Shown here one piece after another: positions 2,049 through 64,000 of a DNA stretch of 64,000 nucleotides. Made by a program: the position numbers and the translations under genes. The DNA comes from Candidatus Spongiihabitans sp. (GTDB taxonomy: Bacteria; Pseudomonadota; Gammaproteobacteria; Arenicellales; Poriferihabitantaceae). Each line of letters begins with the position of its first letter. The stretch's first letter is position 1. The DNA is taken from assembly GCA_965237725.1 (NCBI GenBank), contig OZ250151.1, positions 3,497,283 to 3,561,282 of the forward strand, in the 5' to 3' direction. A model generated the notes under the pieces. That model searched no databases and had not been told where the DNA came from. It was given only the letters and a program-made list of their open reading frames with translations.

Positions 2049-2546
2049 TTGAATTGGAAATCTGATTTCAAATTCAACTACGATTGGAAAAACATGTATA
2101 AAATTATTCAAACCCCAGACATTGAAATACGCGACACTAAAACAAAAAAAGGTAGAGGCGTATACGCTTGTCGGGATTTTAAAAATAATGAAATTATCGA
2201 AATCTCTCCTTACATCGTATTAGAGGATCACTTCAGTTTAATACCTGATTGCCTACAGGAAATTGTGTATAACGGCAGCGGATTTAAGAAACTATCTCGC
2301 AAGGCTGAAAAAGAGGGCAAGCAGGTGTTAGCTATAGTATTGGGCTATGGCAGTATGTACAACCACGGAAATCCTGCCAATGTCAGCGCAAAACCAAATC
2401 CTAAAACCAGAATTATGGAATACAAATCGTTGCGGAAAATTACTAAGGGAACTGAGCTTTTGATTAACTACGATGCACTGTGGACGGGGGTTAGTAAGGG
2501 AAATAAATGGATTGCCCAACGAAAATTAAAATATATTAAGCCCTAA
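2049..2546 (+). CDS. SET-domain protein (putative protein-lysine methyltransferase)
   Basis: RGVYACRDFKNNEIIEISPYIVL matches the SET N-region. YNHGNPANV matches the NHSxxPN motif. GTELLINYD matches the ELxxDY motif. The track start is TTG at 2049; the ATG at 2094 is an alternative. The gene is visibly more A/T-rich than its neighbours. Confidence 0.7.
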   Translation: MNWKSDFKFNYDWKNMYKIIQTPDIEIRDTKTKKGRGVYACRDFKNNEIIEISPYIVLEDHFSLIPDCLQEIVYNGSGFKKLSRKAEKEGKQVLAIVLGYGSMYNHGNPANVSAKPNPKTRIMEYKSLRKITKGTELLINYDALWTGVSKGNKWIAQRKLKYIKP

Positions 2547-4868: not shown

Positions 4869-5651
4869 TTATCTGTTGGCAATATATTGTGTTGGGGTCA
4901 TGCCAAGGTTCTGTCGAAACATGGCAATAAATGCAGAAGGGGATTCATAACCCATTTCCAGGGCCACTGTGGTTACCGCCACACCTTCAGCCAGCCGTTC
5001 CAGTGCGGATAATAAAATTCGACGCCGGCGCCATTCTCCGAAAGTCATGCCGGTTTCCTGCTTGAAAAGCCGCGCCAGGGTTCGGCCGCTGGCACCCACC
5101 CTTGAACCATGCTGTTCAATGGTGCGTCGGTCCGTGGGATCAGATAATAATGCATTGGTTACAGCACTCAATCGTGGGTTGGACGATAGAGGTAGATGTA
5201 GCGGGGCGGGTTTGGCGCAACGAATACGATCCAGAATTACCATCATAAGTCGGTTATCTGATCCATTCTCATCCCAGGCTCGGGGTAATTTGGCAGCTTC
5301 CAGAATTAGATTTCTAAGCAGCACATCTACGCTAAGTACGGTGCAGGAGTCCGGCATCCCCACCACTTCACTCGCTGCAATATACAGGCTTCTAAACTTG
5401 GCCGGGCCGATGGGACGGATATCGTGAGTGACACCCGGCGGTAACCATACCGCCATTGCAGGTGGCGCGGTAAAGTGGCCGTCGTCGGTGAGTACGGTGA
5501 GCACACCCTCAGCGGAATAAGTAAACTGTCCCCATTTATGTGCGTGGGGCTTAAAGGTTTCTCCGTCGGCCATGTCGAATGCTCGAACCTCAACGGGACG
5601 AATCAGCCGGGTTGGAATTTCGTTTATTCGTGTTTGTCTGTTTTCCGACAT
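4869..5651 (-). CDS. AraC-family transcriptional regulator (cupin N-domain)
   Basis: C-terminal HTH region SGRTLARLFKQETGMTFGEWRRRRIL...GYESPSAFIAMFRQNLGMTP, with a cupin-like N-terminal half. Confidence 0.85.
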   Translation of the reverse strand: MSENRQTRINEIPTRLIRPVEVRAFDMADGETFKPHAHKWGQFTYSAEGVLTVLTDDGHFTAPPAMAVWLPPGVTHDIRPIGPAKFRSLYIAASEVVGMPDSCTVLSVDVLLRNLILEAAKLPRAWDENGSDNRLMMVILDRIRCAKPAPLHLPLSSNPRLSAVTNALLSDPTDRRTIEQHGSRVGASGRTLARLFKQETGMTFGEWRRRRILLSALERLAEGVAVTTVALEMGYESPSAFIAMFRQNLGMTPTQYIANR

Positions 5652-5736
5652 AACTTGTCATTATACCGAAATTCAGACGAAGTTAAGAGCGCTATATTAG
5701 CGCCATTAATTATCGGTAAATTTTGGGAGAATCATC

Positions 5737-6996
5737 TTGAGTCGTTTTGTACCCCGTTTCCTGCAAGGCTATGAAGGCATGCTGGTATTAATGGCATGCG
5801 CCATGGCGGTGAGTTTATACGGCTGGTTCACTTTGTTGAATAATTTTGTGGTTGAGCGCGCCGCATTTACCGGCCGTGAAATTGGATTTCTTCAGTCCAT
5901 TCGAGAGATTCCTGGTTTCCTTTCATTCCTGGCAATATTTTTACTGCCGTTTATGCGTGAGCAGAATCTGGCTTATTTTTCTTTGGCCATGCTGGGGATT
6001 GGTACCGCAATCACAGGGTTTTTTCCTTCGGAATACGCCCTCTATGCAACCACATTCTGGATGTCTATGGGGTTTCATTATTATGAAACCATGAACCAGT
6101 CCTTGACCTTGCAACTGGTTGACAAAGCCCATACCCCCGTGCATTTGGCGATGCAGTTAAAAGCATCATCTATCGGTACCCTGGGAATTTTTGCCGTCAT
6201 CATCTTGTGTTTCGATGAGAAAGTTTTAATCATGGTTCAGAATATTCTCGGTATGGAATCCAGCTTCACCGGTTTTGCACTTGGGTTCACACCGTTGTAC
6301 ATGATCGCAGGTATTTTCACCTTGGCAGTAGCAATATTTTGTAAATTTTATTACCCCATTTTTGAGTCCAAAGAAGTACAGCATAAAACATTATTTTTGC
6401 GTCAGCGTTACTGGTTATATTATGCATTGACCTTTATGGGTGGTGCTCGGCGTCAGATATTTATGGTATTTGCCGGATTTCTCATGGTGGAAAAATTCGG
6501 CTATGACGTGACTTCCATTACGCTTTTATATCTGATTAACCTGATTGCCAATATCTGGATTGCCCCATATGTCGGACGGTTCATAAAAAAGCTGGGAGAA
6601 AGAAAAGCACTGATCATTGAGTATGTCGGATTGATTGCCATCTTCGCAGGTTATGCCGTTGTCGACGATCATCGCATGGCTGCCGGGCTTTATATTCTCG
6701 ACCATCTATTTTTTGCGTTTGCTATTGCCATAAAAACTTACTTCCAGAAGATTGCAGATCCCAAAGATATTGCGTCCACCGCAGGCACCAGTTTCACCAT
6801 TAACCATATCGCTGCGGTCGGTATCCCGGCGGCATTCGGACTGATCTGGATCGGCGATCCTGGTCTGGTTTTTTACATGGGATCAGCTATGGCCGTGGTG
6901 TCCTTATTGCTTGCGCTTATGATTCCAGGAGATCCACGTCCGGGGCGAGAGACAACTTTAAGTGATCCCCAGCTTGAGCTGCAGCCCACAGACTGA
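5737..6996 (+). CDS. polytopic membrane transporter (MFS-like)
   Basis: 419 aa with about 12 hydrophobic segments. The track gives a TTG start. The family assignment is tentative. Confidence 0.5.
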   Translation: MSRFVPRFLQGYEGMLVLMACAMAVSLYGWFTLLNNFVVERAAFTGREIGFLQSIREIPGFLSFLAIFLLPFMREQNLAYFSLAMLGIGTAITGFFPSEYALYATTFWMSMGFHYYETMNQSLTLQLVDKAHTPVHLAMQLKASSIGTLGIFAVIILCFDEKVLIMVQNILGMESSFTGFALGFTPLYMIAGIFTLAVAIFCKFYYPIFESKEVQHKTLFLRQRYWLYYALTFMGGARRQIFMVFAGFLMVEKFGYDVTSITLLYLINLIANIWIAPYVGRFIKKLGERKALIIEYVGLIAIFAGYAVVDDHRMAAGLYILDHLFFAFAIAIKTYFQKIADPKDIASTAGTSFTINHIAAVGIPAAFGLIWIGDPGLVFYMGSAMAVVSLLLALMIPGDPRPGRETTLSDPQLELQPTD

Positions 6997-7068
6997 ATTT
7001 AGCCTGCTCGCTGGTAAAAAATAATGTTGTTGCCCATAAAATATAGCAAAAAATTATAACTGACATAT

Positions 7069-7590
7069 ATGACTGAACAAACCGCAAATCAAGCGCAAGA
7101 GATGATGCAACTGGCTCTGGCAGAATGCCAGGCCACGGTTAGGGGCTACGACACTAAGGCTCAGATTGTTGGGGTAGGTTACATCTTTGCCCTGGAAATT
7201 ATTTTCCAATTGTCCAAGCTGCTTCCCAGTATAGGGCAGGAAGTGGATTTGCCTTTTGTTGTCGGCGCCTGGGCGGTTATGATTTTTCCCATCGCATTAT
7301 TCGGGTTTGTACTTTATCCAACGCGAAAATCTGTCAAGCATTTGAAAATCCCTTCTAAAACGGTAAAAAGATCGCTCTACCTCGAGCCCGAGCGATACGA
7401 TAATCTGGGGCAATACATTGAGGAAGTCAAACAGGCCGATATCAACGAAGAGCTTGCCCACGAGCTATTCAAAATTTCCAGTCTGCGAGAGCTTAAAAGA
7501 AATCGCTTCCTTCGCGCATTATTTTCATCGGGGTTAGCATTTGTCGTATTGTTTGCTGGCCAGGTGGCCAGAGTGTTGTGGAATAGTTAA
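7069..7590 (+). CDS. small 3-TM membrane protein (possibly DUF5706/Pycsar-effector-like)
   Basis: 173 aa. YDTKAQIVGVGYIFAL precedes TM1. A second TM follows, then a helical cytosolic stretch, then a C-terminal TM. Confidence 0.4.
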   Translation: MTEQTANQAQEMMQLALAECQATVRGYDTKAQIVGVGYIFALEIIFQLSKLLPSIGQEVDLPFVVGAWAVMIFPIALFGFVLYPTRKSVKHLKIPSKTVKRSLYLEPERYDNLGQYIEEVKQADINEELAHELFKISSLRELKRNRFLRALFSSGLAFVVLFAGQVARVLWNS

Positions 7591-7606
7591 TCAATTAGGA
7601 GAGGAT

Positions 7607-8296
7607 ATGTCGAAAATGCAATTGATTCAGGCAGAAGTCTGTCCCTACGCCCAGCGCACCCATATGTGTTTGCTGGAAAAACAGCTGGATTTTGAAGTCA
7701 TTGAAGTTGACTTGAAAAACAAACCCGCATGGTTTGAGGAAATTTCACCATATAGCAAGGTGCCGGTATTGAAGGATGAAAATATAAGGTTGTATGAATC
7801 GACCATCATCAATGAATACCTTGATGAGGTGTACCAGGATCCGCCCTTGATGCCCGAAGTTTCTGGTGATCGCGCTATGGCCCGAACCTGGATTGATTTT
7901 GATAACGTCAAATTTGTACCTGCCTTTTATCAGGTTCTGCTGGAGCAGGATCTGGATAAACGCCAGGGCATTGCCGATGACCTGGTCGAACAAATGCAGT
8001 TTATGGAAAGCCAGGGATTCTCCAAAGATGCCAATGGACCTTATTGGTTTGGTGAAAAAATCTCGCTAGTGGACCTGGCCATTTATCCCCACTTCGAGCG
8101 CATCGGCGTATTGGAAGCTTATAGAAATATTTCAATTCCCCAATCCTGTTCGAGGTTAAGGGAATGGTTGGCTGCCATGCTGGAAAGACCCAGCGCAAAA
8201 GCCACTGCTCATGACAATAATTATCACGTTGATGCATACAGCCACTATGCCGATGGAACGGCTTCTGGAACCACGGCCAAGGATATGCGTCGATAA
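7607..8296 (+). CDS. glutathione S-transferase (thioredoxin-like N-domain)
   Basis: CPYAQRTHMCL active-site region and KVPVL, ESTIINEYLDE motifs. I chose the ATG at 7607, preceded by AGGAGAGG, over the track start at 7541. Confidence 0.8.
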   Translation: MSKMQLIQAEVCPYAQRTHMCLLEKQLDFEVIEVDLKNKPAWFEEISPYSKVPVLKDENIRLYESTIINEYLDEVYQDPPLMPEVSGDRAMARTWIDFDNVKFVPAFYQVLLEQDLDKRQGIADDLVEQMQFMESQGFSKDANGPYWFGEKISLVDLAIYPHFERIGVLEAYRNISIPQSCSRLREWLAAMLERPSAKATAHDNNYHVDAYSHYADGTASGTTAKDMRR

Positions 8297-8312
8297 AATG
8301 AGGTTTTTGGGG

Positions 8313-9029
8313 TTAGTCCAGAGACAAAAGCGCTAACCCAACGACGGCCAACATGGCCAATGCCATGAAGCAGTTAACAATAAACTGCATACGAGGGTTG
8401 AGGTTGAGTTGTTCGATCAGGCTGCCAGCGCCTAGCCAAAGCAGATGGATAGGTATCCAAATTAAATTAATAATCAGAAACTTGATTAATGTTTCTTCGA
8501 TTAACGAGTCAGCATGAAAAGCAAAACCACTGAACAAAGTGGTGTTGACCACATAGGCTTTTGGGTTGATCGCCTGGAGTATTAATGCCGCACGTATCCC
8601 GGGTATTTTATCTGCGAAAATAAATGCAATCTTCGAACCCGCAAATGCAATACGTAGTGCGAGGTAAAACAAATAGAGCGTTGAAAGCACCAGTAGGGTA
8701 TTGCGTGCCCAGTGGGTCGTCAGAATTACGGTGGCGAGACCAGACACCACAGCAAGGGCAACCAGGTTTGTACCTATACATAATCCAATTACATATCGAA
8801 TCCCAGCACGAAAACCAAAAGCCGCACCAACCCCTGCAGTTGACAAGACGCCGGGTCCCGGGGTTATCAACAGCAGGAATACTGCGATACTAAATGCGAT
8901 CATGGCTTGGAATTCTACAGTAAACGATTTGTGGCTTGATTCGAGTAACTGATTAAATTTGTCGGCAATTTTTACATCATCCAGATTTACGTTGTTTTGA
9001 TTAGCGTTGATAACCATTAACAAAATCAT
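8313..9029 (-). CDS. LysE/RhtB-family amino-acid exporter
   Basis: Contains LLITPGPGV and multiple TM segments. The real start is probably the internal Met at 8903 (MIAFSIAVF...). Confidence 0.75.
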   Translation of the reverse strand: MILLMVINANQNNVNLDDVKIADKFNQLLESSHKSFTVEFQAMIAFSIAVFLLLITPGPGVLSTAGVGAAFGFRAGIRYVIGLCIGTNLVALAVVSGLATVILTTHWARNTLLVLSTLYLFYLALRIAFAGSKIAFIFADKIPGIRAALILQAINPKAYVVNTTLFSGFAFHADSLIEETLIKFLIINLIWIPIHLLWLGAGSLIEQLNLNPRMQFIVNCFMALAMLAVVGLALLSLD

Positions 9030-14247: not shown

Positions 14248-14880
14248 ATGCAATTAGTCAACGAGTGGTACTACTTCACCCAGGCCCTGGACAAGGCGAC
14301 CTGTGAACGGATTATTGGCCTGGGTGCGAATGAATTCAAAGAAGCAGCAGTTGACGTTAAAGTCGGTATATCCGAAGAAGAAAGAATTTCTGGCGTAAAA
14401 CCAGTCATTGGCAAGAACAAGAAAATTAGGACCAGTGAAGTTGTATGGCTAGCTGAGCAGTGGATATACGATTTGATCTGGCCCTATATGCAAACGGCTA
14501 ATGAAAAAGCTGGCTGGAAGTTTGATATAAAAGGCGCGGAATCAATACAGCTAACCCGTTATTCCCCGGGTGGGTTTTATGCCTGGCATCGGGATGGTAA
14601 GTCAGATCATCTTTCAGTTTATGACAATCCGGAAAATAAGTTCCTGCACGGCCACGTTCGAAAACTGTCCATGACCATTTTGTTAAACGATGAATTCGAA
14701 GGGGGTAATTTTGAATTTTCAACTTATGCCAAGGAAAAACACAGCGTCTCTACACCAGATTTCAAATCCCGGGGATCGATTATTTTTTTTCCGTCTTTTA
14801 TTGAACACCGGGTTGCGCCGGTTACTACTGGGGTGCGTTATTCTCTTGTGGCCTGGCTGGTGGGGCCGCCTTTCCGGTAA
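14248..14880 (+). CDS. 2OG-Fe(II) oxygenase (prolyl 4-hydroxylase-like)
   Basis: HxD motif in WHRDG, a distal His in FIEHRV, and RYSLVAW at the C-terminus. Confidence 0.7.
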   Translation: MQLVNEWYYFTQALDKATCERIIGLGANEFKEAAVDVKVGISEEERISGVKPVIGKNKKIRTSEVVWLAEQWIYDLIWPYMQTANEKAGWKFDIKGAESIQLTRYSPGGFYAWHRDGKSDHLSVYDNPENKFLHGHVRKLSMTILLNDEFEGGNFEFSTYAKEKHSVSTPDFKSRGSIIFFPSFIEHRVAPVTTGVRYSLVAWLVGPPFR

Positions 14881-56194: not shown

Positions 56195-56405
56195 GGTACA
56201 CTTCACTTTGGTATTACCTGCGGTGTTCGAGTTGTTCTCCGAATCCCTTAGAACCTAATATTTATACTCGGGTGCTGTTATGAATGACCGGCGTGTATGA
56301 CCCCAGCCTGGCTGGTGCGAATCCCAAAGTTATTCTTTGTACCCACTTGGACCTCCTTGGTTCAAGGTAAAGTGAGCATACGGCACTCGCGGGTAATGCT
56401 TTTTA
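56195..56405 (+). ncRNA. ssrS: 6S RNA (SsrS)
   Basis: A non-coding gap lies in the conserved zapA-ssrS-ygfA position. The 3' part, ccttggttcaagg...cggcactcgcgggtaatgc, resembles E. coli 6S (CCUUGAACCAAGGGUUCAAGG...GCCUGCGGCGGCAUC). The 5' gtattacctgcg can pair with the 3' cgcgggtaatgc. An internal hairpin CCAGCC/GGCTGG is present. A T-run follows the closing helix. The ends are approximate. Confidence 0.7.
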
Positions 56406-56418
56406 TCTCTCCGTTTAG

Positions 56419-57033
56419 TTGACATCATTTGTGATAAACACCACCAACAAAACCGATTTGCGTAAACTGATACGCGATAAACGAAAATCCCTTTCTGATA
56501 TTCAGCAGGCTAAGGCTGCTCAGGGGTTGTTAAGCCAATTATTGGTCATTCCCGAATTTCTTAGCGCCGAAAAAATTGCCCTATATTTGTGTAATGATGG
56601 CGAAATAGATCCTGTTGAAGTAATGCAATGGTGCTGGAAAAATTCCAGGCAGGCCTATGTACCTAGGGTGGTGCAAAATCATAAGAATTCACTTTTGTTT
56701 GCGCAAGTGACAGAAAACACGGAATTTACCGAAAATCGCTATGGCATCAGCGAACCGGTGGTTGCGCAAGAACAACTGTTATCCGCGCAAGATCTGGATT
56801 TGGTTTTAATGCCCCTGGTAGCTTTTGATGATAACGGTAATAGGCTGGGAATGGGTGGTGGTTTCTATGACACGACTTTCGAATTCATTAAAAAAGGTAA
56901 TGTGGTGAAACCGCATTTGATTGGCATTGCTCATGAGATTCAAAAAGTAGAAAACATCGAAGCCGAAAGCTGGGATATTCCGCTGTCAACGGTGGTCAGC
57001 GATAGTCGGGTTTATAATTTGACGATTGAGTGA
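56419..57033 (+). CDS. ygfA: 5-formyltetrahydrofolate cyclo-ligase
   Basis: MPLVAFDDNGNRLGMGGGFYD motif. It sits downstream of ssrS. Confidence 0.85.
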   Translation: MTSFVINTTNKTDLRKLIRDKRKSLSDIQQAKAAQGLLSQLLVIPEFLSAEKIALYLCNDGEIDPVEVMQWCWKNSRQAYVPRVVQNHKNSLLFAQVTENTEFTENRYGISEPVVAQEQLLSAQDLDLVLMPLVAFDDNGNRLGMGGGFYDTTFEFIKKGNVVKPHLIGIAHEIQKVENIEAESWDIPLSTVVSDSRVYNLTIE

Positions 57034-57225
57034 TAAATTACTGAAACCTCTGCGATAGTCATGTCGGACCAAATTGAGTCCAAACTTTCCAATATTTTCG
57101 TTGGACAACTTCGTAATTGATCGACTATTGCGTGGGTTCCCCGTCTTAATCTAGAAAAGTTTTTCTATCAACTTGATTCGCCCAGATATAGGCTTTCTCA
57201 ATTGCTAGCATAGAATCTTTCTAAA

Positions 57226-57258
57226 ATGATATGACTAAAGTCACATCATTTTTTATTA
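57226..57258 (+). terminator. candidate Rho-independent terminator
   Basis: The stem ATGATATGAC / GTCACATCAT (9 of 10 pairs) has a TAAA loop and is followed by TTTTTTATT. The stem is A/T-rich, so this call is weak. Confidence 0.4.
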
Positions 57259-57622
57259 CAATTTGGTAGAAAAGGGCTAACAAGGGATATTGATGATAGT
57301 TTCATTTTAGGTTTACTCTCGATTTTATCTAAACCTTAAAGGTACAGCTTATCTGTAAAAAGCGACACTTCGTTTGAAATATTCGTATTCGCATAAAATT
57401 TAAGTTAGTTTCAAAGTGCTCCGTGGGGTTGAATTAGTTACACCCCACAAACTGTCTTTGAGATTAGTTTGAGAGACGTTTGGTAATAGTCAGACTTTGG
57501 TAGGTACGTAAATTAGTACTCCAATAGTCAGTCTCGGAAAAAATGGAAGCGCACTAGTAAATCTTGGCCATTTAAAACTAAATGGCGTATTTGGATTGAA
57601 CGAGAAATGAAAAGGGAAATTA

Positions 57623-59092
57623 ATGGATTTTTCACTGCTCAAAATCTACGGTATTACATTTCATGGCGGTGGAATTATATCTACTGTGGGCTTTACTTTT
57701 CGATCTCAGTGGCTATTAGGACTTTTTCGTCGCCTTTGCTTCGTCACAGTCTTAGTCTATTCGTCTTTCCCAACTTTTCTCCATGCCCAAACCCAAGACT
57801 ACATCGAATATCAATACGATGGTGCGGGGAATATTATCGGCATCATTACTAAGAATAATGGAGGACAACCTGATGTAACTAGCCTGGTCCCCGACCATGT
57901 TAATCGGGATAAAACAATTACGATTAGCGCGGCAGGCGTGAATCTTTATAAAGCACAAGTTGCCACGGATCACGACGGCATCACTATATTAAATACTGAG
58001 ACGATTTCATCGGAATTGGTTAAATTTACAATTTCATCAAAATTTGATGCGGAAATTGGCTTTGCGAATTTCACCTTTACCACAAGATTAGGGAGGGATA
58101 TCGAATCAATTTTTGTCGCAATAAGACTTCCGGTCATTTCAACAGACCCAAATCCGATTGCACTTGTGGCAAGTGGACCAAGCCGTCCTGTATCGCTCAC
58201 ATTTGATTTGCCATATCCAACAGATCAGGAGTTTAACCTGGCGGCCTCAAATACATCATTAGCAAAAACCAATGTTGGCAGTGTGACATTAGAGGCAGGC
58301 TCAACAGAAGCTTCATTTTTCATGGCGGGGTTAGAAAAGGGAGTTACAACCCTCGAAGTATCCCAGCCTGCGGCATTCTCTGGCGTATCCATCCCGGTTT
58401 TTGTCTCTGATCCTTTTGATTTGCCAAATGGAAATACCGAATTTACCAGTAAATCTGTGGGAGTTACGGTTAGCCGTTTTGATCTTTCAACAGGGGAATC
58501 TGAATTTGTTTTATCCACAGTGGGTGTTCTAAGAAATGCCAATGAATTGATCGTTGGGGATAAATTTGTTCATTCAAATTCAGTGGGTATTTCGATGCCC
58601 GCCCCAATTAACGAGCTACCTAGCGGAAACGCATACCTAAATACCGAACCTTTGGGTGTGTTAAAAAATTCAGAAAACATGTTACCTGAGGGTGAAAGTT
58701 ATTCTTACAGCGATTTGCTTGGCATAAATATTAATACAGAATTTCTCCTTCCCAATGGGGACGCATCATTGTTGTCTGATGCATTGGGCGTGACCAATCC
58801 TCCCTACATCAATAATCGATCTCATGGAAATTTTAGTCAAGGTTCCTCCCTAATATTAATATTAACGGGTGTAGGTCTCGATGTTTCGAGGACAGTAATA
58901 TTTGAACCAACAACAGGAATAACACAATCGTCGGTATTTGTCGTCAATCCAGCTGGTACTCAAATTGAAGTGTTCCTGGACATCAGCCCAACGGCGTCTT
59001 TAGGCCCGCGACAAATAAAAATAAACACCTTAACTGGAGCAGTTCCATTTATCCAATCTACTAACGAAATTTTTCAAACAATTAGTAATTAA
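57623..59092 (+). CDS. secreted repeat protein (single YD motif, Ig/IPT-like domains, 6x ~22-aa repeat)
   Basis: Signal-like LLGLFRRLCFVTVLVYSSFPTFLHA followed by YIEYQYDGAGNIIGI (YD-repeat motif). The start codon is uncertain; an internal GTG is possible. Confidence 0.6.
   Translation: MDFSLLKIYGITFHGGGIISTVGFTFRSQWLLGLFRRLCFVTVLVYSSFPTFLHAQTQDYIEYQYDGAGNIIGIITKNNGGQPDVTSLVPDHVNRDKTITISAAGVNLYKAQVATDHDGITILNTETISSELVKFTISSKFDAEIGFANFTFTTRLGRDIESIFVAIRLPVISTDPNPIALVASGPSRPVSLTFDLPYPTDQEFNLAASNTSLAKTNVGSVTLEAGSTEASFFMAGLEKGVTTLEVSQPAAFSGVSIPVFVSDPFDLPNGNTEFTSKSVGVTVSRFDLSTGESEFVLSTVGVLRNANELIVGDKFVHSNSVGISMPAPINELPSGNAYLNTEPLGVLKNSENMLPEGESYSYSDLLGININTEFLLPNGDASLLSDALGVTNPPYINNRSHGNFSQGSSLILILTGVGLDVSRTVIFEPTTGITQSSVFVVNPAGTQIEVFLDISPTASLGPRQIKINTLTGAVPFIQSTNEIFQTISN
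58418..58798 (+). repeat. six degenerate tandem ~21-23-aa protein repeats (L-P/S-x-G ... S..(L/V)G(V/I))
   Basis: Repeat starts fall at aa 267, 288, 309, 332, 354 and 376 of the 489-aa protein: LPNGNTEF..VGV, LSTGESEF..VGV, LIVGDKF..VGI, LPSGNAY..LGV, LPEGESY..LGI and LPNGDAS..LGV. Confidence 0.6.
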
Positions 59093-59141
59093 ACATATGA
59101 AACCGAATTCAATATTACCCAAACCGAACAGGAGTACCGTC

Positions 59142-60596
59142 ATGAAACACTTGTATATCTATTCAACGTCACTAATTTTATTGATACTAACATTTACAAA
59201 CTCTCTTGCTTTCGAAAGCGGTAGTAATGGGTCCGATGGCGTTCTAAATGTGACTGTTGATACTGTCTTACAACTTCCGGCGAGCGGCGTATTTAATTTT
59301 ACGGATGTGACAGTGGCCGAAGGTGCGACGTTGAGATTTAGAAAAAATTCATCTAATACGCCGGTTTATCTTTTAGCTAGTGGCAATATTACAATCGAAG
59401 GTACGATCCAGGTTAATGGAGAAACCTCAGTCAACACTGATGACGACGACCGGGTCGGTGACGGACAACCAGGTTCAGGTGGCGCGGGTGGATTTGACGG
59501 GGGACGAGGCGGATACATTGGTATTGATGCTGATAACGATGGTGCTCCGGGTCAGGGGCCAGGAGGAGGGAACCCTGGAACACTCGCAAAATCTTGTGCA
59601 TTTGAATTTTCCGGAACAGGTGGTGGTGGTGGTGGGTATTTTGCCGCCGGTTTGAAAGGCGACTCTGGGGGAGCTGGCGGACAAGCTTATGGGGTTAGTT
59701 ACTTAATCCCGTTGATTGGCGGATCAGGAGGTGGGGGCGCTTCTGGTCCTGGAAATAGCGGTCGCAGTAACACCTTTGGTTCTGGAGGCGGTGGAGGCGG
59801 TGGCGCAATGTTAATTGCGTCATCAGGATTAATCTCAATTACAGGGACAATCACGGCAAATGGTGGTGGTTCTGGGTCAGTTGTAAAACCTTCGGGTGGA
59901 AGTTGCGCGACTGGAGGTAGCGGTGGTGGTGGCAGTGGTGGTGCAATTCGAATTATTGCCAGCAAGCTTACGGGTACTGGAACATTGAGGGCAATTGGCG
60001 GTGTCGCAGCGAGAGATGCACGTGAGAAAGGTGGACGCGGATCACATGGTCGAATTCGACTTGAAGCCGATGAGTTTCAATGGTGGGTAGCAACAACTCC
60101 TTCATTTAGTTCATCCGCACCAAACCCGGTATTTGTAGCGGATCTCCCTGGAATCGTAATCAGCTCTGTTGGCGGCATTAATGCGCCCGGTTCACCAACT
60201 GGCTTTAACGATATTATTCTACCTGACAATACACCTAACCCAGTTACAGTGGAATTCACAACAACAGATATACCCACAGGAGGTGTAATCGAATTAACTG
60301 CGACTCCCGTTACAGGATCTAGCGTTACAGTCAATAGTTCCGCAATTGGTGGTTCAGAAGCAAGCGGGTCGGCATCAGCCTTAATCGATTTACCCAACGG
60401 CCCCAGTACGTTGATTGCCACAACGACATTTCTGGTTATCGCCGATCTTGGAAAAGATTATTCAAAATATGTCATGGGAGAAGAAGTGAAAGAAGTGAAG
60501 ATTGCTTCTGTTGCAGGTCAGGGCTCGGTTACGACTTTTATTACAACCCAGGGTAATGAATACCCTTGGCATACGGGGCAGCTTTCAAATAACTAA
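59142..60596 (+). CDS. secreted glycine-rich, probable beta-solenoid protein
   Basis: Signal peptide MKHLYIYSTSLILLILTFTNSLA, with AGGAG upstream of the ATG at 59142. Poly-Gly runs alternate with I-x-I-x-G-x-I strands (ISITGTITANGGGSG, AIRIIASKLTGTGTLRAIGG, GRIRLEAD). Confidence 0.6.
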   Translation: MKHLYIYSTSLILLILTFTNSLAFESGSNGSDGVLNVTVDTVLQLPASGVFNFTDVTVAEGATLRFRKNSSNTPVYLLASGNITIEGTIQVNGETSVNTDDDDRVGDGQPGSGGAGGFDGGRGGYIGIDADNDGAPGQGPGGGNPGTLAKSCAFEFSGTGGGGGGYFAAGLKGDSGGAGGQAYGVSYLIPLIGGSGGGGASGPGNSGRSNTFGSGGGGGGGAMLIASSGLISITGTITANGGGSGSVVKPSGGSCATGGSGGGGSGGAIRIIASKLTGTGTLRAIGGVAARDAREKGGRGSHGRIRLEADEFQWWVATTPSFSSSAPNPVFVADLPGIVISSVGGINAPGSPTGFNDIILPDNTPNPVTVEFTTTDIPTGGVIELTATPVTGSSVTVNSSAIGGSEASGSASALIDLPNGPSTLIATTTFLVIADLGKDYSKYVMGEEVKEVKIASVAGQGSVTTFITTQGNEYPWHTGQLSNN

Positions 60597-60649
60597 GCAA
60601 TGAGCCAGTTGAGTTTGAACAACGATGCAAATTGCATAGTGGAATTAGC

Positions 60650-63600
60650 ATGAAACCAAATTGGAAGTATTGCCGAATATGGGTGGCTTCAGTTTTTCGA
60701 GTATCTTCTCGAAGAAAAAATTCGAATGGTCGACTCTCCCATCCAATTGAACAAGTAGGAAAAACGACCTTAGGTGGGGCAATCTTCTTAGTTTTCATGG
60801 GAATGGGAGCATTAATCTGGCAGTCCCACGTTACTGGGCAAGTTTCCCAACCCATTAATTCCGCGCCCTGGGTTGGTGAAATAACGGGAATTTTTAAACT
60901 AGACACTGATGGCCAACTAGTCAATCATTTCAAGCTTGGTGAAGAAATTGAAGACAGAGACATAGATTGTTCACCGCTGGAAGAATGGCAAGAGAAAGTG
61001 AAGTATCGGAAAGGGGATTTTGTACAACATAATGGCAATGCCTGGCGGGCCAATAAAAAAACCAAGAAGGAACCAAAGGCGGGCGGAAAGGGGTCAAAAG
61101 GTCCCAAGGGATCGAAAGGATCCAGGGGATCGAAAGGTTCCAAAGGTTCCAAGGGTTCCAAGGGTTCTAAAGGTTCCAAAGGTTCCAAAGGTTCCAAGGG
61201 TTCTAAAGGTTCGAAAGGTAATGGCTCGAAAGGCAAAGGTTCGAACTGGGCGTTACTAGGCCCTTGTGCATCCGACTCAAACGATAAGTCAACTGGTGTG
61301 ATTGGGCTAATTGACGACGAATCCATATTGTGGGCCTACCTTCACGATCACCGTTTATATCAAATTAATACCGATAGCGAACAAATTACCGAAATTATCT
61401 TCCCCGATCCACCCCAGGACGGTAATTTCGATTGTGCTGATTTAAATCTCTGGGATGCTTCAGAAAAATATAAGAAAAACGATTTTATCGAATTCATCGG
61501 ACATGCCTGGGAAGCCAAAAAATCAACCTCTAAAGAACCCGATTTGTCATCGGATAAATATTGGAAAGATTTAGGAGAGTGCATAGCGGATGTTAACTAT
61601 GCGGGACACCTCATAACCGATGGACAAGTGCTGTGGCTAGCACGAGGGAGGCAAATTATTCGCTATGAGAATGCAATAGCGGAATCGTTTGAAACGATAA
61701 ACCCAGTCAATGCCATCACCTGGGATGAAATCAGTCAGCAATTGTGGGTTGCATCCGGTACAACTTTCGAGCGCAGAATTGCGAATGGAACTATTGTCGA
61801 TGTAGATTCCTTGACTAACGGCCCAGTAACCGCCATGGGTGTGGATCTTCGCAATGGTTATTTATGGCTTAGCACAAATTCAGGAGTGTTATCACAATAC
61901 GATGCGAATAGTACTTTCATTGGTAATCTGATTTTGCCAATGGGTGTGGTCGAGCATATTATTTCTGATAATCAGGGTGGGTTGTGGGTAGCGGACGCGA
62001 GCAAGGTTATCAACCTGGACGAATTCGGAAACATTGTGCAAATTCTCGAACCCGTACTGGGCGGTAGTGCCATTAGAGATATTACAGTCGCAGCAGACGG
62101 TAGTTTGTGGATAGCCACTGCAGATCAACTTTGGCGCTACGATGACGTCCAAGGTCTAACCCAAGAATGGGTAGCCCCGAGTGCAAACCCGATTATCGTA
62201 AATGTTCTTTCACAACAAGTTAGCCATAACAATCCGCCAGAAATTACTTCGGACCCTATTACCGACGCAATCCTTAACGACAATTACAGCTACGATGTTA
62301 TAGCGACAGATGCAGATGGAGATGATCTGGAGTTTCAATTAACCGCCGCACCTGTTGGAATGACCATCGATGAATTCACAGGTTCAATCTTATGGCTTGC
62401 GGACAGCATAGGCGACTTTGATGTAACTGTTGAAGTATTCGATACCCGAGGTGGGGTTGATAGTCAAAGTTTTACGGTTAGCGTCATCGATCCAGATACC
62501 ACGCCGCCAGTCATTACCCTGACCAGCCCCCAGAACGGACTCCTGACCAATAATTCAGTACTCTCCATCGTGGGATTCATAGACGAGATCGCCACGTTAT
62601 CGCTAAATGGTTCGCCCCTTTCCCAAAATCCAGATTTGTCGTTTGGCGCTACCGTTAGTTTGGTTGAAGGGATCAATAATTTTGTGCTCAATGGGGTAGA
62701 CCCTTCTGGAAATTCCAGTGATGTTTTATTCAGCGTTACATTAGACAGCATCGCGCCACAAATTGTGGTCAGCTCACCCAGCGATGGCGATTTAACTAAT
62801 GAGGAAAATCAATCCGTTGAAGGTAGCTTATCGGAATCCGCTGTACTCACCATCAATGATCAGTCGGTTACAGTTCATCCATCATTAGATTTTACAAGCG
62901 CCCTTACCCTAATCGAAGGCAACAACACCATAACCCTTGTTGCTACTGATCCCGTTGGCAATCAATCCACCACAAACCTATCCGTTACCTTAGATAGCAT
63001 TGCACCAGAAATCACTAACTTAGTCCCAATATCGGGTTCGTTTACCAATATTCCAAACCAAACTATTTCTGGTCAACTAAGCGAACCCGGCAGCGTAACC
63101 GTTAATGGTAATGCAGCGACGGTAAACAAAGATGACTCATTTGTGTTTACCCCTTTTGCGTTAACCGAAGGGGCCAATCTGATCGATATCACAGCAACGG
63201 ACTCAGCGGGAAATTTTACTGATGCTCAGATTAACATTACCCTAGATACAGTAGCGCCGGTTATACAACTCGATGCGCCAAACAACAACGTTCAATTTAA
63301 TAATCCAGATGTTCTGTTTGAAGGCACTGTTAGCGAGCTTGTCAATCTAACTATTAATGGTGATGCCATAGCCTTAGAAAATGATAATTCATTTAGCGCA
63401 ACCCTGACCCTGTTAGAAGGGGATAACAGTGGGGACATTGTGGCCACCGATTTCGCGGGAAACCCAACGACGATTACCCGTCAAATCAATATCGATTCGA
63501 TCCCCCCAGCAGCCATTGATCAGGGCTTGGTCAATCGGGGTAATCCCACTAATGAAATTGTTATGGTCAGTGGTTTGCCCGGGGCCGCAGAACCCGGAAG

Positions 63601-64000
63601 TCTGGTGCATATCATCAACATCATTACCAGCTTCGAAGTATTTACCCTTGCTCAAAATGATGGCAGTTTTTCAGCGGATATAGCCGCATTCGATAACGAA
63701 CCGTTTACCTTGTTTAGCGTTGATGCTGCAGGTAACCAGGGACCGTCATTTGTACTGGTCCCACCAAACCCGCCGTCTTTAATTCAGGATCCAGTCGGAA
63801 ATCGTATTGCACCTTTAGGCAAAACAACGAGCTTTACGATCACAGCAAATGATAGCGATGGCGATCCCATAACCCTGGGCGTGACCCCGTTGCCCCTGCT
63901 AGATGGCATGACCTATAACATCGTCACTGGTGAAGTCAAATTTACTCCATCAGAAGATCAAGTGGGTGATCATGAATTAATCTTTAGCGCCCAGACCGAT
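60650..64000 (+). CDS. giant surface/adhesin-like protein, 5' partial (>1117 aa, continues past the window end)
   Basis: I hand-translated this frame from the ATG at 60650 to base 64000 with no stop. It is absent from the ORF track, presumably because it is open-ended. It contains an N-terminal TM (GGAIFLVFMGMGALIW), two CBM5/12-like Trp motifs, a (GSK)n array, LW-rich propeller-like repeats, PPEITS...DADGDDLEF cadherin/He_PIG-like domains and five Ig-like modules. Confidence 0.85.
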   Translation, partial: MKPNWKYCRIWVASVFRVSSRRKNSNGRLSHPIEQVGKTTLGGAIFLVFMGMGALIWQSHVTGQVSQPINSAPWVGEITGIFKLDTDGQLVNHFKLGEEIEDRDIDCSPLEEWQEKVKYRKGDFVQHNGNAWRANKKTKKEPKAGGKGSKGPKGSKGSRGSKGSKGSKGSKGSKGSKGSKGSKGSKGSKGNGSKGKGSNWALLGPCASDSNDKSTGVIGLIDDESILWAYLHDHRLYQINTDSEQITEIIFPDPPQDGNFDCADLNLWDASEKYKKNDFIEFIGHAWEAKKSTSKEPDLSSDKYWKDLGECIADVNYAGHLITDGQVLWLARGRQIIRYENAIAESFETINPVNAITWDEISQQLWVASGTTFERRIANGTIVDVDSLTNGPVTAMGVDLRNGYLWLSTNSGVLSQYDANSTFIGNLILPMGVVEHIISDNQGGLWVADASKVINLDEFGNIVQILEPVLGGSAIRDITVAADGSLWIATADQLWRYDDVQGLTQEWVAPSANPIIVNVLSQQVSHNNPPEITSDPITDAILNDNYSYDVIATDADGDDLEFQLTAAPVGMTIDEFTGSILWLADSIGDFDVTVEVFDTRGGVDSQSFTVSVIDPDTTPPVITLTSPQNGLLTNNSVLSIVGFIDEIATLSLNGSPLSQNPDLSFGATVSLVEGINNFVLNGVDPSGNSSDVLFSVTLDSIAPQIVVSSPSDGDLTNEENQSVEGSLSESAVLTINDQSVTVHPSLDFTSALTLIEGNNTITLVATDPVGNQSTTNLSVTLDSIAPEITNLVPISGSFTNIPNQTISGQLSEPGSVTVNGNAATVNKDDSFVFTPFALTEGANLIDITATDSAGNFTDAQINITLDTVAPVIQLDAPNNNVQFNNPDVLFEGTVSELVNLTINGDAIALENDNSFSATLTLLEGDNSGDIVATDFAGNPTTITRQINIDSIPPAAIDQGLVNRGNPTNEIVMVSGLPGAAEPGSLVHIINIITSFEVFTLAQNDGSFSADIAAFDNEPFTLFSVDAAGNQGPSFVLVPPNPPSLIQDPVGNRIAPLGKTTSFTITANDSDGDPITLGVTPLPLLDGMTYNIVTGEVKFTPSEDQVGDHELIFSAQTD
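61082..61243 (+). repeat. 9-bp tandem DNA repeat (GGTTCCAAA-like) encoding a Gly-X-Lys collagen-like triplet array
   Basis: In frame it reads GGK GSK GPK GSK GSR followed by 10 x GSK, giving 15 uninterrupted G-X-Y triplets. It then degenerates to GNGSKGKGS. Confidence 0.9.
62495..63760 (+). repeat. five tandem ~84-aa Ig-like modules within the giant ORF
   Basis: The recurring frame is D(S/T)(I/V)(A/P)P.I...P..G..TN....(V/I).G...E...(L/V)T(I/V)NG......D.SF.....L.EG.N.I...A.D..GN, repeated five times. Confidence 0.75.

What the first reader, a model, noticed from the sequence alone, without database searches (positions are those of the whole stretch)
61082..61243. Fifteen uninterrupted Gly-X-Lys/Arg triplets encoded by a near-perfect 9-bp DNA repeat
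The array GGK-GSK-GPK-GSK-GSR-(GSK)10 is a strict G-X-Y repeat, as in bacterial collagen-like proteins. It is unusual in being almost purely Ser/Lys at the X and Y positions and in carrying very high positive charge. It lies exactly between two paralogous Trp-rich binding-type motifs (60968-61075 and 61433-61540).

The DNA is a 9-bp unit repeated with only third-position wobble. That makes it a plausible hot-spot for in-frame length variation. The regular lysine array also offers a conspicuous potential substrate for the SET-domain enzyme encoded at 2049-2546. That link is pure inference.
Basis: partly seen in the sequence, partly recalled or inferred. Interest (0 to 1): 0.6.

Follow-up and report, generated by a model that had tools for sequence, protein, structure and literature searches.

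The report
Lysine-rich repeat loop, not collagen
The Gly-Ser-Lys repeat is real. It is a species-specific, positively charged floppy loop that grew inside a small sugar-binding-type module at the front of a giant exported bacterial protein. It is a fairly ordinary low-complexity expansion rather than a collagen-like rod.

Summary
The array exists as described: 15 uninterrupted Gly-X-Lys/Arg triplets at 61082-61216, in the + strand ORF that starts at 60650 and runs off the window.

Two details are wrong.
- The DNA repeat is degenerate. Only 3 of 15 units equal the consensus.
- The array does not lie between two motifs. It lies inside the first of two paralogous, Cys-bracketed CBM5-type modules, in the surface loop before the last conserved Trp.

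Both modules replace the near-invariant chitin-binding Tyr-Trp pair with Lys-Lys or Lys-Ser.

The only orthologue found (L211, 38% identity over about 440 residues) keeps the modules and the basic substitutions. In place of the array it has a 24-residue non-repetitive basic loop, so the array is a lineage-specific expansion.

Homologues of the host protein carry RHS repeats.

A loop tied at both ends, with 1 Pro, no acidic residues and a net charge of +17/+18, is not a plausible triple helix.

(GSK)n arrays recur as tails, linkers and loop insertions in unrelated proteins in metagenomes and giant viruses.

Best reading: a flexible polycationic loop that extends an already cationic binding face, probably for electrostatic attachment to polyanions.

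I found no support for the SET link. Copy-number polymorphism could not be tested.

The parts
60650..64000 (+). 5' part (1116 codons) of a giant exported protein. The ORF is still open at the window end.
   Evidence: Translation. Pfam finds CBM_5_12, He_PIG, 4x Glucodextran_B, Big_13 and Big_9. Homologues in L211 and L212 continue into RHS repeats.
60764..60823 (+). Single hydrophobic segment (residues 39-58), preceded by a basic N-terminus. It is a signal anchor or a long signal peptide, so the rest of the protein is extracytoplasmic.
   Evidence: Kyte-Doolittle scan. The segment is conserved in the L211 orthologue. Topology is inferred.
60968..61267 (+). CBM5-type module 1 (Cys107 to Cys206), which contains the array as a loop insertion.
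   Evidence: Pfam CBM_5_12 scores 30.8 bits against a cut-off of 26.2. With the array removed, the module aligns end to end with the solved chitodextrinase CBM 9x9r_A (E = 3e-6) and with 6z40_A. See also alignments A1, A2 and A3.
61055..61060 (+). Lys136-Lys137, at the positions of the near-invariant chitin-binding aromatic pair of CBM5 (Y282-W283 of CjCBM5).
   Evidence: Alignment A2. The role of the pair is described in PMC8449059. The L211 orthologue has Lys-Arg here.
61076..61246 (+). The whole expanded loop of module 1 (residues 143-199, 57 aa, net charge +18).
   Evidence: The same loop is 7 aa in module 2, 24 aa in the L211 orthologue and about 10-12 aa in solved CBM5s (counted from the alignment).
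61082..61216 (+). The 15 G-X-[KR] triplets: GGK GSK GPK GSK GSR (GSK)10.
61127..61216 (+). The homogeneous part of the array: ten GSK units that differ only at synonymous third positions. It includes a 36-bp higher-order duplication that starts at 61154.
61433..61582 (+). CBM5-type module 2 (Cys262 to Cys311), a paralogue of module 1 without the array. Lys291-Ser292 occupy the aromatic-pair positions.
   Evidence: BLASTP between the two modules gives E = 2e-11. Pfam CBM_5_12 gives E = 0.013. 6z40_A gives E = 0.0097 over residues 5-57. See also A2.
62237..62485 (+). First Ig-like (He_PIG) domain. It is followed by Glucodextran_B, Big_13 and Big_9 domains up to the window end.
57623..60596 (+). 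Two upstream genes (489 aa and 499 aa) that form a conserved three-gene cluster with the giant protein.
   Evidence: Homologues occur in the same order in L211, L212 and L213. Neither has a Pfam or NCBIfam family. The N-terminal signal-peptide-like sequences of both proteins were read by eye.

Best explanation
The array is a lineage-specific tandem expansion of a 9-bp unit, most likely by replication slippage or unequal exchange. That origin is inferred from the 9-bp and 36-bp periodicity.

It sits inside a surface loop of the first of two degenerate CBM5-type modules. These modules lie at the extracytoplasmic N-terminus of a giant Rhs-family-like protein. The host is a gammaproteobacterium related to the sponge symbiont Candidatus Spongiihabitans.

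The loop leaves and re-enters the same small disulfide-bracketed fold. It therefore behaves as a flexible loop of about 57 residues with net charge +18, not as a collagen rod.

The expanded loop is the one that carries a third binding-surface aromatic residue in CjCBM5 (Tyr296). The conserved Tyr-Trp chitin-stacking pair is replaced by Lys-Lys here, and by Lys-Arg in the orthologue.

The most likely role, by inference, is to enlarge a cationic binding face. This would let the module attach electrostatically to polyanionic surfaces, such as sulfated glycans, LPS or other acidic envelope polymers, nucleic acid or biosilica, rather than to chitin.

**Shown**
- The anatomy and the position of the insertion.
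- Loss of the aromatic pair.
- Absence of the array from the orthologue.
- Synonymous-only variation within the array.

**Inferred**
- Flexibility of the loop.
- The ligand class.
- The Rhs nature of the unseen C-terminal part.
For: **Position of the insertion**
- Module 1 without the array aligns over its full length, including both Cys, with solved CBM5 domains (9x9r_A E = 3e-6, and 6z40_A).
- The paralogue alignment, the five-sequence alignment and the orthologue alignment all place the array between 'EP' and the conserved core Trp.

**Both ends tied**
- In CjCBM5 the disulfide C253-C306 joins the N- and C-termini of the domain.
- Y282-W283 is almost fully conserved in CBM5 and is needed for chitin binding. 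Y296 and G297, in the neighbouring loop, belong to the binding surface (PMC8449059).

**Conserved cationic face**
- The aromatic-pair positions are KK and KS in the window, and KR and KR in L211.
- The core of module 1 has net charge +4 in both species. The loop is +18 here and +5 in L211. Solved CBM5s are about neutral.
- The rest of the protein is strongly acidic: -92 over 1062 residues.

**Lineage-specific expansion**
- The L211 orthologue shows 38% identity over about 440 residues and has a 24-residue non-repetitive loop in place of the array.

**Constraint at the peptide level**
- 16 synonymous against 3 non-synonymous variant codons. 18 of 22 differences fall at third positions (binomial p = 4e-6, events not independent).

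**Precedent**
- 24 stand-alone (GSK)6-28 arrays occur in ORFs of at least 150 aa. They form C-terminal tails (L084, L106, L092), an insertion within a stretch matched by the Pfam fn3_6 model (sub-threshold hit, L133) and linkers in intracellular enzymes (topoisomerase II L123, LigD-like L114). The enzyme names are my reading of the sequences, not family searches.

**Host protein**
- RHS repeats are present in the homologous giant proteins of L211 and L212 (E about 1e-55).
Against: - No binding or structural experiment exists, and the ligand class is pure inference.
- The single-sequence AlphaFold model was uninformative (pLDDT 39.7). That the module still folds with a 57-residue loop rests on conservation of the C-terminal W..LG.C strand alone.
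- Only one orthologue was found, so the direction of change (gain here or loss there) rests on the repeat structure.
- The L211 orthologue is split into three ORFs and may be a pseudogene.
- Module 2 of the window protein is not basic overall (net charge -2).
- Synonymous-only variation could partly reflect shared descent of duplicated units.
Confidence: 0.6

Rival explanations
1. Neutral or nearly neutral low-complexity expansion. The loop tolerates insertions, slippage inflated it, and it has no function beyond being harmless.
For: - The array is absent from the only orthologue.
- The same array type turns up sporadically in unrelated proteins, including intracellular enzymes.
- The homologous loop is already variable in length: 7, 24 and 57 residues.
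Against: - Variation among units is almost entirely synonymous (16:3). Gly is never replaced and Lys is replaced only by Arg. This argues for constraint on the peptide after the units diverged.
- The expansion increases a charge property that is conserved in the orthologue.
Confidence: 0.22
2. Collagen-like triple helix. Three chains would associate through the G-X-Y tract to form a short cationic rod, as in bacterial collagen-like adhesins.
For: - There are 16 uninterrupted G-X-Y triplets.
- Pfam Collagen scores 30.5 bits on the excised 120-residue fragment.
- There are weak sub-threshold matches to Scl1, Scl2 and Lcl.
- A proline-free (GAS)19 tract gave a weak triple-helix CD signal when carried by the trimeric Bucl8 scaffold (PMC7682875).
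Against: - Both ends of the tract belong to one small fold whose termini are disulfide-linked in relatives. A loop cannot run as a parallel three-chain rod about 13 nm long (my estimate of its length) (PMC8449059).
- No trimerisation domain flanks it. Scl-type collagens need one to nucleate folding (PMC8968730).
- It has 1 Pro and no acidic residue, hence no KGE/KGD-type interchain salt bridges (PMC11923368 abstract), and would put about +51 charge on a trimer.
- From my memory of host-guest data, GSK has a lower propensity than GAS.
- The orthologue lacks the tract.
- In the whole protein, Pfam Collagen is below its cut-off (26.0 against 27.2).
- 23 of 24 other GSK arrays are stand-alone and occur in non-collagen contexts.
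Confidence: 0.06
3. Contingency locus. The array exists mainly to vary in copy number in frame, giving surface or antigenic variation between cells or strains.
For: - The 9-bp and 36-bp periodicity, with exact self-matches of 20-26 nt.
- Loop length differs between orthologues.
- (GAS)n in Bucl8 ranges from 6 to 38 copies among about 100 alleles (PMC7682875).
Against: - The units are interrupted by synonymous differences, which is not what a rapidly turning-over array looks like.
- In 5 pairs of related, non-identical contigs with such DNA arrays, the copy number was identical.
- No conspecific sequence of this gene could be found.
Confidence: 0.08
4. Substrate array for lysine modification. 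Either the SET-domain protein at 2049-2546 methylates it, or a radical-SAM system matures it as with HxsA.
For: - Regularly spaced, exposed lysines.
- A SET-domain gene in the same 64 kb.
- A sub-threshold match to NCBIfam HxsA4 (45-49 bits against a cut-off of 55).
- From memory: lysine-rich repeats of the mycobacterial adhesin HBHA are methylated.
Against: - The SET gene is 58 kb away, between TauD/epimerase and HutD/MBL genes. Its product has no N-terminal hydrophobic segment.
- The array's host protein is exported.
- The HxsA4 match is carried by the array's periodic composition alone (34 bits) and vanishes without it.
- The array contains no His-X-Ser motif.
- No ORF of at least 100 aa in the window has a CxxxCxxC radical-SAM motif.
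Confidence: 0.03

Closest known systems
Family 5 carbohydrate-binding modules (e.g. CjCBM5 of Cellvibrio japonicus LPMO10A, PDB 6Z40; the N-terminal module of a chitodextrinase, PDB 9x9r)
   Same: - Same size and sequence pattern outside the expanded loop.
- The N- and C-terminal Cys pair is present.
- The core Tyr and Trp are conserved (Y119/W200 and Y274/W305).
- The T-x-x-x-P turn is conserved.
(PMC8449059.)
   Different: - The almost invariant surface Tyr-Trp pair that stacks on chitin is Lys-Lys or Lys-Ser.
- The loop before the last Trp is 57 residues in module 1, against about 10-12 in solved CBM5s.
- The module is strongly basic.
Bucl8 (GAS)n collagen-like region of Burkholderia pseudomallei and B. 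mallei (PMC7682875)
   Same: A monotonous, proline-free G-X-Y tract encoded by a 9-bp repeat in an exported bacterial protein.
   Different: - Bucl8's tract is a free extension on a trimeric outer-membrane channel and is electrically neutral. It showed a weak triple-helix CD signal.
- The tract here is an internal loop of a small module, carries about +17 charge, and has no trimeric scaffold.
Streptococcal Scl1/Scl2 and other bacterial collagen-like adhesins
   Same: Gly at every third residue. Weak sub-threshold profile matches.
   Different: - Those have a trimerising V domain, longer tracts (from memory), many Pro residues and mixed charged residues (PMC8968730).
- None of these features is present here.
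HxsA effector of the HXS anti-phage system (PMC13128918)
   Same: - A polysaccharide-binding-type domain followed by basic three-residue repeats, proposed to engage a polyanion (DNA) electrostatically.
- It gives the best NCBIfam match to the array, though below the cut-off.
   Different: - There are no His-X-Ser motifs.
- There are no HxsB/C/D partners in the window.
- The match disappears when the array is removed.
- HxsA is a small periplasmic protein, not a giant Rhs-like one.
Stand-alone (GSK)n arrays in metagenome and giant-virus proteins (L084, L092, L106, L133, L153, L114, L123, L207)
   Same: The same tripeptide unit and the same kind of 9-bp DNA array, with 6-28 copies. In L133 the array lies within a stretch matched by the Pfam fn3_6 model (sub-threshold hit), much as here.
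   Different: - They are unrelated proteins. Most arrays are terminal tails or interdomain linkers.
- None is in a CBM5-type module.
Polycationic Lys/Ser-rich binding peptides: silaffin R5 (SSKKSGSYSGSKGSKRRIL) and, from memory, the Lys-rich heparin-binding repeats of mycobacterial HBHA
   Same: Lys, Ser and Gly composition. R5 contains GSKGSK (the string was found verbatim in 21 papers). Both are polyanion- or silica-binding by charge.
   Different: There is no homology. The resemblance is in composition only, and no evidence here bears on silica or heparin.

Membership tests
Collagen-like (triple-helical) protein | Uninterrupted Gly-X-Y repeat | tested here: met
   16 consecutive G-X-Y triplets, residues 145-192.
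Collagen-like (triple-helical) protein | Passes the Pfam PF01391 gathering score | tested here: inconclusive
   26.0 bits against 27.2 in the 1116-aa protein. 30.5 bits on an excised 120-aa fragment. The model responds to any periodic Gly.
Collagen-like (triple-helical) protein | Stabilising composition: imino acids and/or interchain charge pairs | tested here: not met
   1 Pro and 0 Asp/Glu. The 54-residue stretch has 16 Lys and 1 Arg.
Collagen-like (triple-helical) protein | Free tract next to a trimerising or nucleating domain | tested here: not met
   The tract is a loop inside a CBM5-type module. No coiled-coil or V-type domain was detected.
Collagen-like (triple-helical) protein | Triple-helix CD signature and trimeric state | not testable with these tools
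   This needs a recombinant protein.
CBM5 (Pfam CBM_5_12) | Profile or sequence match over the domain | tested here: met
   Module 1 scores 30.8 bits against a cut-off of 26.2. PDB 9x9r_A gives E = 3e-6 over residues 4-55 of the array-less module. Module 2 is weaker: Pfam E = 0.013 and 6z40_A E = 0.0097.
CBM5 (Pfam CBM_5_12) | Cys pair joining the N- and C-termini, plus the core Tyr and Trp | tested here: met
   C107/C206, Y119 and W200 in module 1; C262/C311, Y274 and W305 in module 2. All align with those of 6Z40 and 9x9r and are conserved in L211 (PMC8449059).
CBM5 (Pfam CBM_5_12) | Surface aromatic pair (Y-W or W-W) that binds chitin | tested here: not met
   K136-K137 and K291-S292 here, and K-R in both modules of L211.
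CBM5 (Pfam CBM_5_12) | Binds chitin | not testable with these tools
   This needs a binding assay. Loss of the aromatic pair predicts weak or no binding.
HXS system (HxsA) | NCBIfam cut-off, His-X-Ser motifs and neighbouring radical-SAM HxsB/HxsC | tested here: not met
   45-49 bits against a cut-off of 55, carried by the array alone. There is no HxS run and no CxxxCxxC ORF in 64 kb.
Rhs / YD-repeat giant proteins (the host protein) | RHS/YD repeats forming a shell | tested here: inconclusive
   The window ends at residue 1116, before any RHS repeat. Homologues that share the Ig-like region (44-50% identity) carry RHS_repeat at E = 5e-57 (L211) and 2e-54 (L212).
Length-variable (contingency) tandem repeat | Copy number differs among strains or reads | not testable with these tools
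   No conspecific sequence could be retrieved. The orthologue lacks the array. 5 related contig pairs with such DNA arrays elsewhere show equal copy number.

The most novel reading that the evidence does not exclude
The two modules represent an undescribed, conserved variant of the CBM5 fold. In this variant the chitin-stacking aromatic pair has been exchanged for basic residues, which would make it a polyanion-binding targeting module at the tip of an Rhs-type giant protein.

In this lineage a selected (GSK)n expansion would turn its binding loop into a long polycationic tether. The tether would anchor the bacterium or its toxin to sulfated or otherwise acidic host matrix, to biosilica, or to the envelopes of competing cells in a sponge.
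Probability: 0.2. Interest if true: 0.55.

Novelty: new member of a known kind. Interest (0 to 1): 0.27.

Why it matters
This result mainly stops a mis-annotation. A strict G-X-Y tract, and a borderline Pfam Collagen hit, do not make a collagen-like protein when the tract is a loop inside another fold.

The modest positive result is a CBM5-type module whose conserved aromatic binding pair is replaced by basic residues in two orthologues, with a species-specific polycationic loop on the same face. If binding assays confirm a switch from chitin to polyanions, this would show how a carbohydrate-binding scaffold is retargeted in surface or toxin proteins of host-associated bacteria.

The survey also shows that (GSK)n arrays recur as a generic low-complexity element in bacteria, eukaryote-like sequences and giant viruses.

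Tried and rejected
- **Protein search with residues 1-520.** The 8000 candidates were saturated by collagens that share GSKGS-type words, so it gave no information on orthologues.
- **Exhaustive HMMER search with residues 199-618.** Hits to the He_PIG Ig domain at the end of the query dominated it, so it was wasted for finding orthologues.
- **Relatives of residues 199-618 in species-representative genomes and JGI metagenomes, and of residues 199-515 among 5.8 billion proteins.** Nothing was found.
- **Exact look-ups of window proteins and of the 100% identical P0173.** None was retrievable. The rest of the gene and the source record could not be read, and cluster look-up gave no names.
- **Route that worked.** A search with the upstream 489-aa neighbour, followed by reading the contigs of its homologues.
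- **AlphaFold2 on residues 96-320 without an alignment.** Mean pLDDT was 39.7, so it was unusable. No fold search was run.
- **Copy-number polymorphism in near-identical metagenome contigs.** An apparent 6 against 7 units between L098 and L103 turned out to be a Ser/Ala substitution, not a length change.
- **HxsA4 lead.** Rejected as a compositional match.
- **SET link.** No support.
- **Antisense ORF 60925-61326 (FEPLEPLEPL...).** Rejected as a mirror image of the repeat. The + frame is continuous with recognised domains, and its variation is synonymous.
- **L213 and L214.** They hold the neighbour genes but no CBM5-type N-terminus.
Full report
**Observation**

The stretch 61082-61216 encodes GGK GSK GPK GSK GSR followed by ten GSK. 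It lies in the frame of a + strand ORF that begins at ATG 60650 and is still open at base 64000, giving 1116 codons. One more G-X-Y triplet (GNG) follows. The register then breaks (SKG KGS) up to 61243.

Tandem Repeats Finder reports a 9-bp period with 13.7 copies and 81% matches, and a 36-bp higher-order period with 3.7 copies. A three-unit degenerate pattern matches eight times, all here, and never in 100 shuffles.

Only 3 of 15 units equal the consensus GGTTCCAAA, and the longest exact self-match at offset 9 is 20 nt.

The variation itself is informative. 18 of 22 departures from the consensus are at third codon positions, and 16 of 19 variant codons are synonymous. Gly is never replaced, and Lys is replaced only once, by Arg. 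This fixes the coding frame. It also suggests the peptide has been kept while the units drifted.

**Where the array sits**

Pfam finds a CBM_5_12 match at residues 112-134, just before the array. After the array come a weak propeller signal, He_PIG, four Glucodextran_B domains, Big_13 and Big_9.

Each module is bracketed by cysteines: C107...C206 and C262...C311.

Aligning the two modules shows that the array is an insertion of about 50 residues in module 1. It lies between 'KEP' and 'W..LG.C', where module 2 has DLSSDKY.

With the array removed, module 1 aligns end to end with the N-terminal module of a solved chitodextrinase (9x9r_A, E = 3e-6), including both Cys. It also aligns with CjCBM5 (6z40_A). 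Module 2 aligns with 6z40_A over residues 5-57.

The NMR study of CjCBM5 (PMC8449059) makes these points:
- The fold is closed by a disulfide between its N- and C-terminal ends (C253-C306).
- Y265 and W299 are core residues.
- The pair Y282-W283 is almost fully conserved in family 5 and mediates chitin binding.
- Y296 and G297, in the neighbouring loop, belong to the binding surface.

Here the Cys pair and the core Tyr and Trp are present. The aromatic pair is Lys136-Lys137 in module 1 and Lys291-Ser292 in module 2. The array replaces the loop that would carry the Tyr296 equivalent.

So the array is not a spacer between two binding motifs. It is a loop that leaves and re-enters one small fold, on or next to what is the binding face in canonical relatives.

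**Organism and host protein**

The window carries pepP-ubiH-ubiF, a 6S RNA and a 5-formyltetrahydrofolate cyclo-ligase gene.

PepP is 78-81% identical to that of four Candidatus Spongiihabitans genomes, which are sponge-associated gammaproteobacteria. All other genomes are at 58% or below. Synteny with those four genomes holds from about 48.5 kb. In three of them it runs to the end of the cyclo-ligase gene at 57.0 kb and stops there. In the fourth (L003) it ends earlier, near 54.5 kb. None of the four carries the three genes 57623-64000 at this place.

Direct searches for relatives of the N-terminal region failed. A search with the upstream 489-aa neighbour found homologues, and their contigs could be read. 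The order 489-aa protein, Gly-rich 499-aa protein, giant protein is conserved in L211, L212 and L213. In L212 it follows a complete type II secretion cluster.

The giant proteins of L211 and L212 share the Ig-like region with the window protein (44-50% identity). They continue into RHS repeats (E = 5e-57 and 2e-54). The window protein is therefore most likely the N-terminal third to half of an Rhs-family giant protein, but the window ends before this can be seen.

A single hydrophobic segment (residues 39-58) is conserved in L211 and follows a basic N-terminus. This indicates that the rest of the protein is exported.

**The orthologue**

L211 encodes a true orthologue of the N-terminal 440 residues (38% identity in the MAFFT alignment, 34% by BLASTP). 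There it is broken into three ORFs.

Both CBM5-type modules are conserved, with their Cys, Tyr and Trp. Both have Lys-Arg at the aromatic-pair positions.

In place of the array, L211 has AFLRRNFSSLPPYPFLGGLRGTKK. This loop is 24 residues long, non-repetitive and carries net charge +5. The loop in the window is 57 residues with net charge +18. Solved CBM5s have about 10-12 residues there and are about neutral overall.

Three conclusions follow:
- The cationic face is a conserved property of this protein family.
- The loop was already long and basic.
- The GSK array is a lineage-specific expansion of that loop.

The rest of the window protein is strongly acidic (-92 over 1062 residues). The array is its only large cationic patch.

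**Is it collagen-like?**

The periodic Gly is real, and the Pfam Collagen model sits at its threshold: 26.0 against 27.2 in the whole protein, and 30.5 on an excised fragment. The other requirements fail.
- The tract is a loop whose two ends belong to one disulfide-closed module. A parallel three-chain rod of 15 triplets would be about 13 nm long (from general knowledge of about 0.86 nm per triplet) and would pull the module apart.
- No trimerising domain flanks it, whereas Scl-type collagens need one (PMC8968730).
- It has one Pro and no acidic residue. The interchain Lys-Glu/Asp salt bridges described as the folding code of collagens (PMC11923368 abstract) therefore cannot form, and a trimer would carry about +51 charge.
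- From my memory of host-guest data, GSK has a lower helix propensity than GAS.
- The orthologue does without it.

The best counter-example is Bucl8. Its proline-free (GAS)19 tract gave a weak triple-helix CD signal. That tract is a free extension of an obligate trimer and is uncharged (PMC7682875).

**How unusual is (GSK)n?**

I scanned for six or more GGN-TCN-AAR units.

Among the 86 distinct arrays that I could read, 24 have the GSK frame as the longest of the six frames, in an ORF of at least 150 aa. Only one of these (L130) is part of a long genuine collagen-like run.

The others fall into several contexts. Enzyme names below are my reading of the sequences, not family searches.
- C-terminal tails: a (GSK)28 tail on a 1190-aa DUF11/DUF7507 secreted protein (L084), and also L106 and L092.
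- An insertion within a stretch matched by the Pfam fn3_6 model, a hit below its cut-off (L133).
- A small secreted protein (L153).
- Linkers in intracellular enzymes, such as a giant-virus topoisomerase II (L123) and a LigD-like protein (L114).

So the array type is a recurrent, generic low-complexity element. Its usual contexts exclude a triple helix.

**Other leads**

The best NCBIfam match is HxsA4 (45-49 bits against a cut-off of 55). [quoted passage not shown] Those repeats are thought to engage DNA electrostatically after radical-SAM maturation (PMC13128918).

The match is carried by the array alone (34 bits). It disappears when the array is removed and is absent in the orthologue. There is no His-X-Ser motif and no CxxxCxxC ORF in the window. 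The protein is therefore not a member of that family, only a functional analogy.

The SET gene (2049-2546) encodes a small protein without an N-terminal hydrophobic segment (my reading of the sequence). It lies between TauD/epimerase and HutD/metallo-beta-lactamase genes, 58 kb from the array. Nothing links the two.

**Length variation**

The 9-bp and 36-bp periodicity, and the absence of the array from the orthologue, show that this loop changes length over evolutionary time. Whether it varies within the species could not be tested, because no conspecific sequence was retrievable.

The synonymous interruptions argue against very rapid turnover. In five pairs of related, non-identical contigs carrying such DNA arrays elsewhere, the copy numbers were equal.

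**Verdict**

It is a slippage-type expansion of a Gly-Ser-Lys unit inside a surface loop of a degenerate, cationic CBM5-type module at the exported N-terminus of a probable Rhs-family giant protein.

The most likely role is to extend a positively charged binding surface for polyanionic ligands. This is inferred from position, charge, conservation of the basic substitutions and synonymous-only variation, and remains untested. The collagen and SET readings are not supported.

Noticed in passing
window 56212-56399 (+): A 6S/SsrS RNA (Rfam RF00013, 65.9 bits against a gathering score of 46.4) lies directly upstream of the 5-formyltetrahydrofolate cyclo-ligase gene at 56419-57033. This is the classical ssrS-ygfA arrangement.
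   Followed up: yes
window 57623-64000; L211 10001-20901; L212 10001-20878; L213 2418-5841: The three-gene cluster is conserved in at least three other contigs: a 489-aa protein, a Gly-rich 499-aa protein and a giant protein. In L212 it follows a full gsp type II secretion cluster. The two smaller proteins have no Pfam or NCBIfam family.
   Followed up: partly
window about 57033-57623, compared with L001, L002 and L004: In three of the four Candidatus Spongiihabitans genomes, synteny ends right after the cyclo-ligase gene. The cluster that holds the array is therefore an accessory region at this place.
   Followed up: partly
L211 12965-20901: The orthologue of the giant protein is split into three ORFs (450, 136 and 2057 aa), with a frame change near 14275-14280. 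I did not resolve whether it is a pseudogene or an assembly error.
   Followed up: no
window 59097-60596 (+): The 499-aa neighbour has a signal-peptide-like N-terminus and long Gly-rich tracts (GGSGGGG...). Its homologues are 64% (L211) and 50% (L212) identical. Its function is unknown.
   Followed up: no
L098 10392-12789 and L103: These are eukaryote-like proteins. Blocks of (GSK)5-7 alternate with acidic Tyr-rich blocks (DDYYYEDD, EYYPS) and with SSKGKGGSKS stretches. In composition they resemble diatom silaffin-type proteins.
   Followed up: no
L084 (reverse-complement coordinates 5064-8633): A 1190-aa secreted DUF11/DUF7507 protein ends in 28 perfect GSK units followed by GKKGYRRY. This is the longest such array seen. 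It looks like a polycationic C-terminal anchor.
   Followed up: partly
L123/L210, L207, L209 (giant-virus contigs): (GSK)6-12 arrays occur inside giant-virus proteins, including what reads as a DNA topoisomerase II. There they can only be flexible linkers.
   Followed up: partly
window 2049-2546 (+): A 165-aa SET-domain protein (Pfam E = 9e-9) with a TTG start and no N-terminal hydrophobic segment. It is flanked by TauD, an epimerase, HutD and a metallo-beta-lactamase-fold gene. Its target is unknown.
   Followed up: partly
window 60925-61326 (-): The antisense frame of the array gives a 133-aa ORF with (EPL)n/(FEPLP)n. It is a mirror artefact of the repeat, not a gene.
   Followed up: yes
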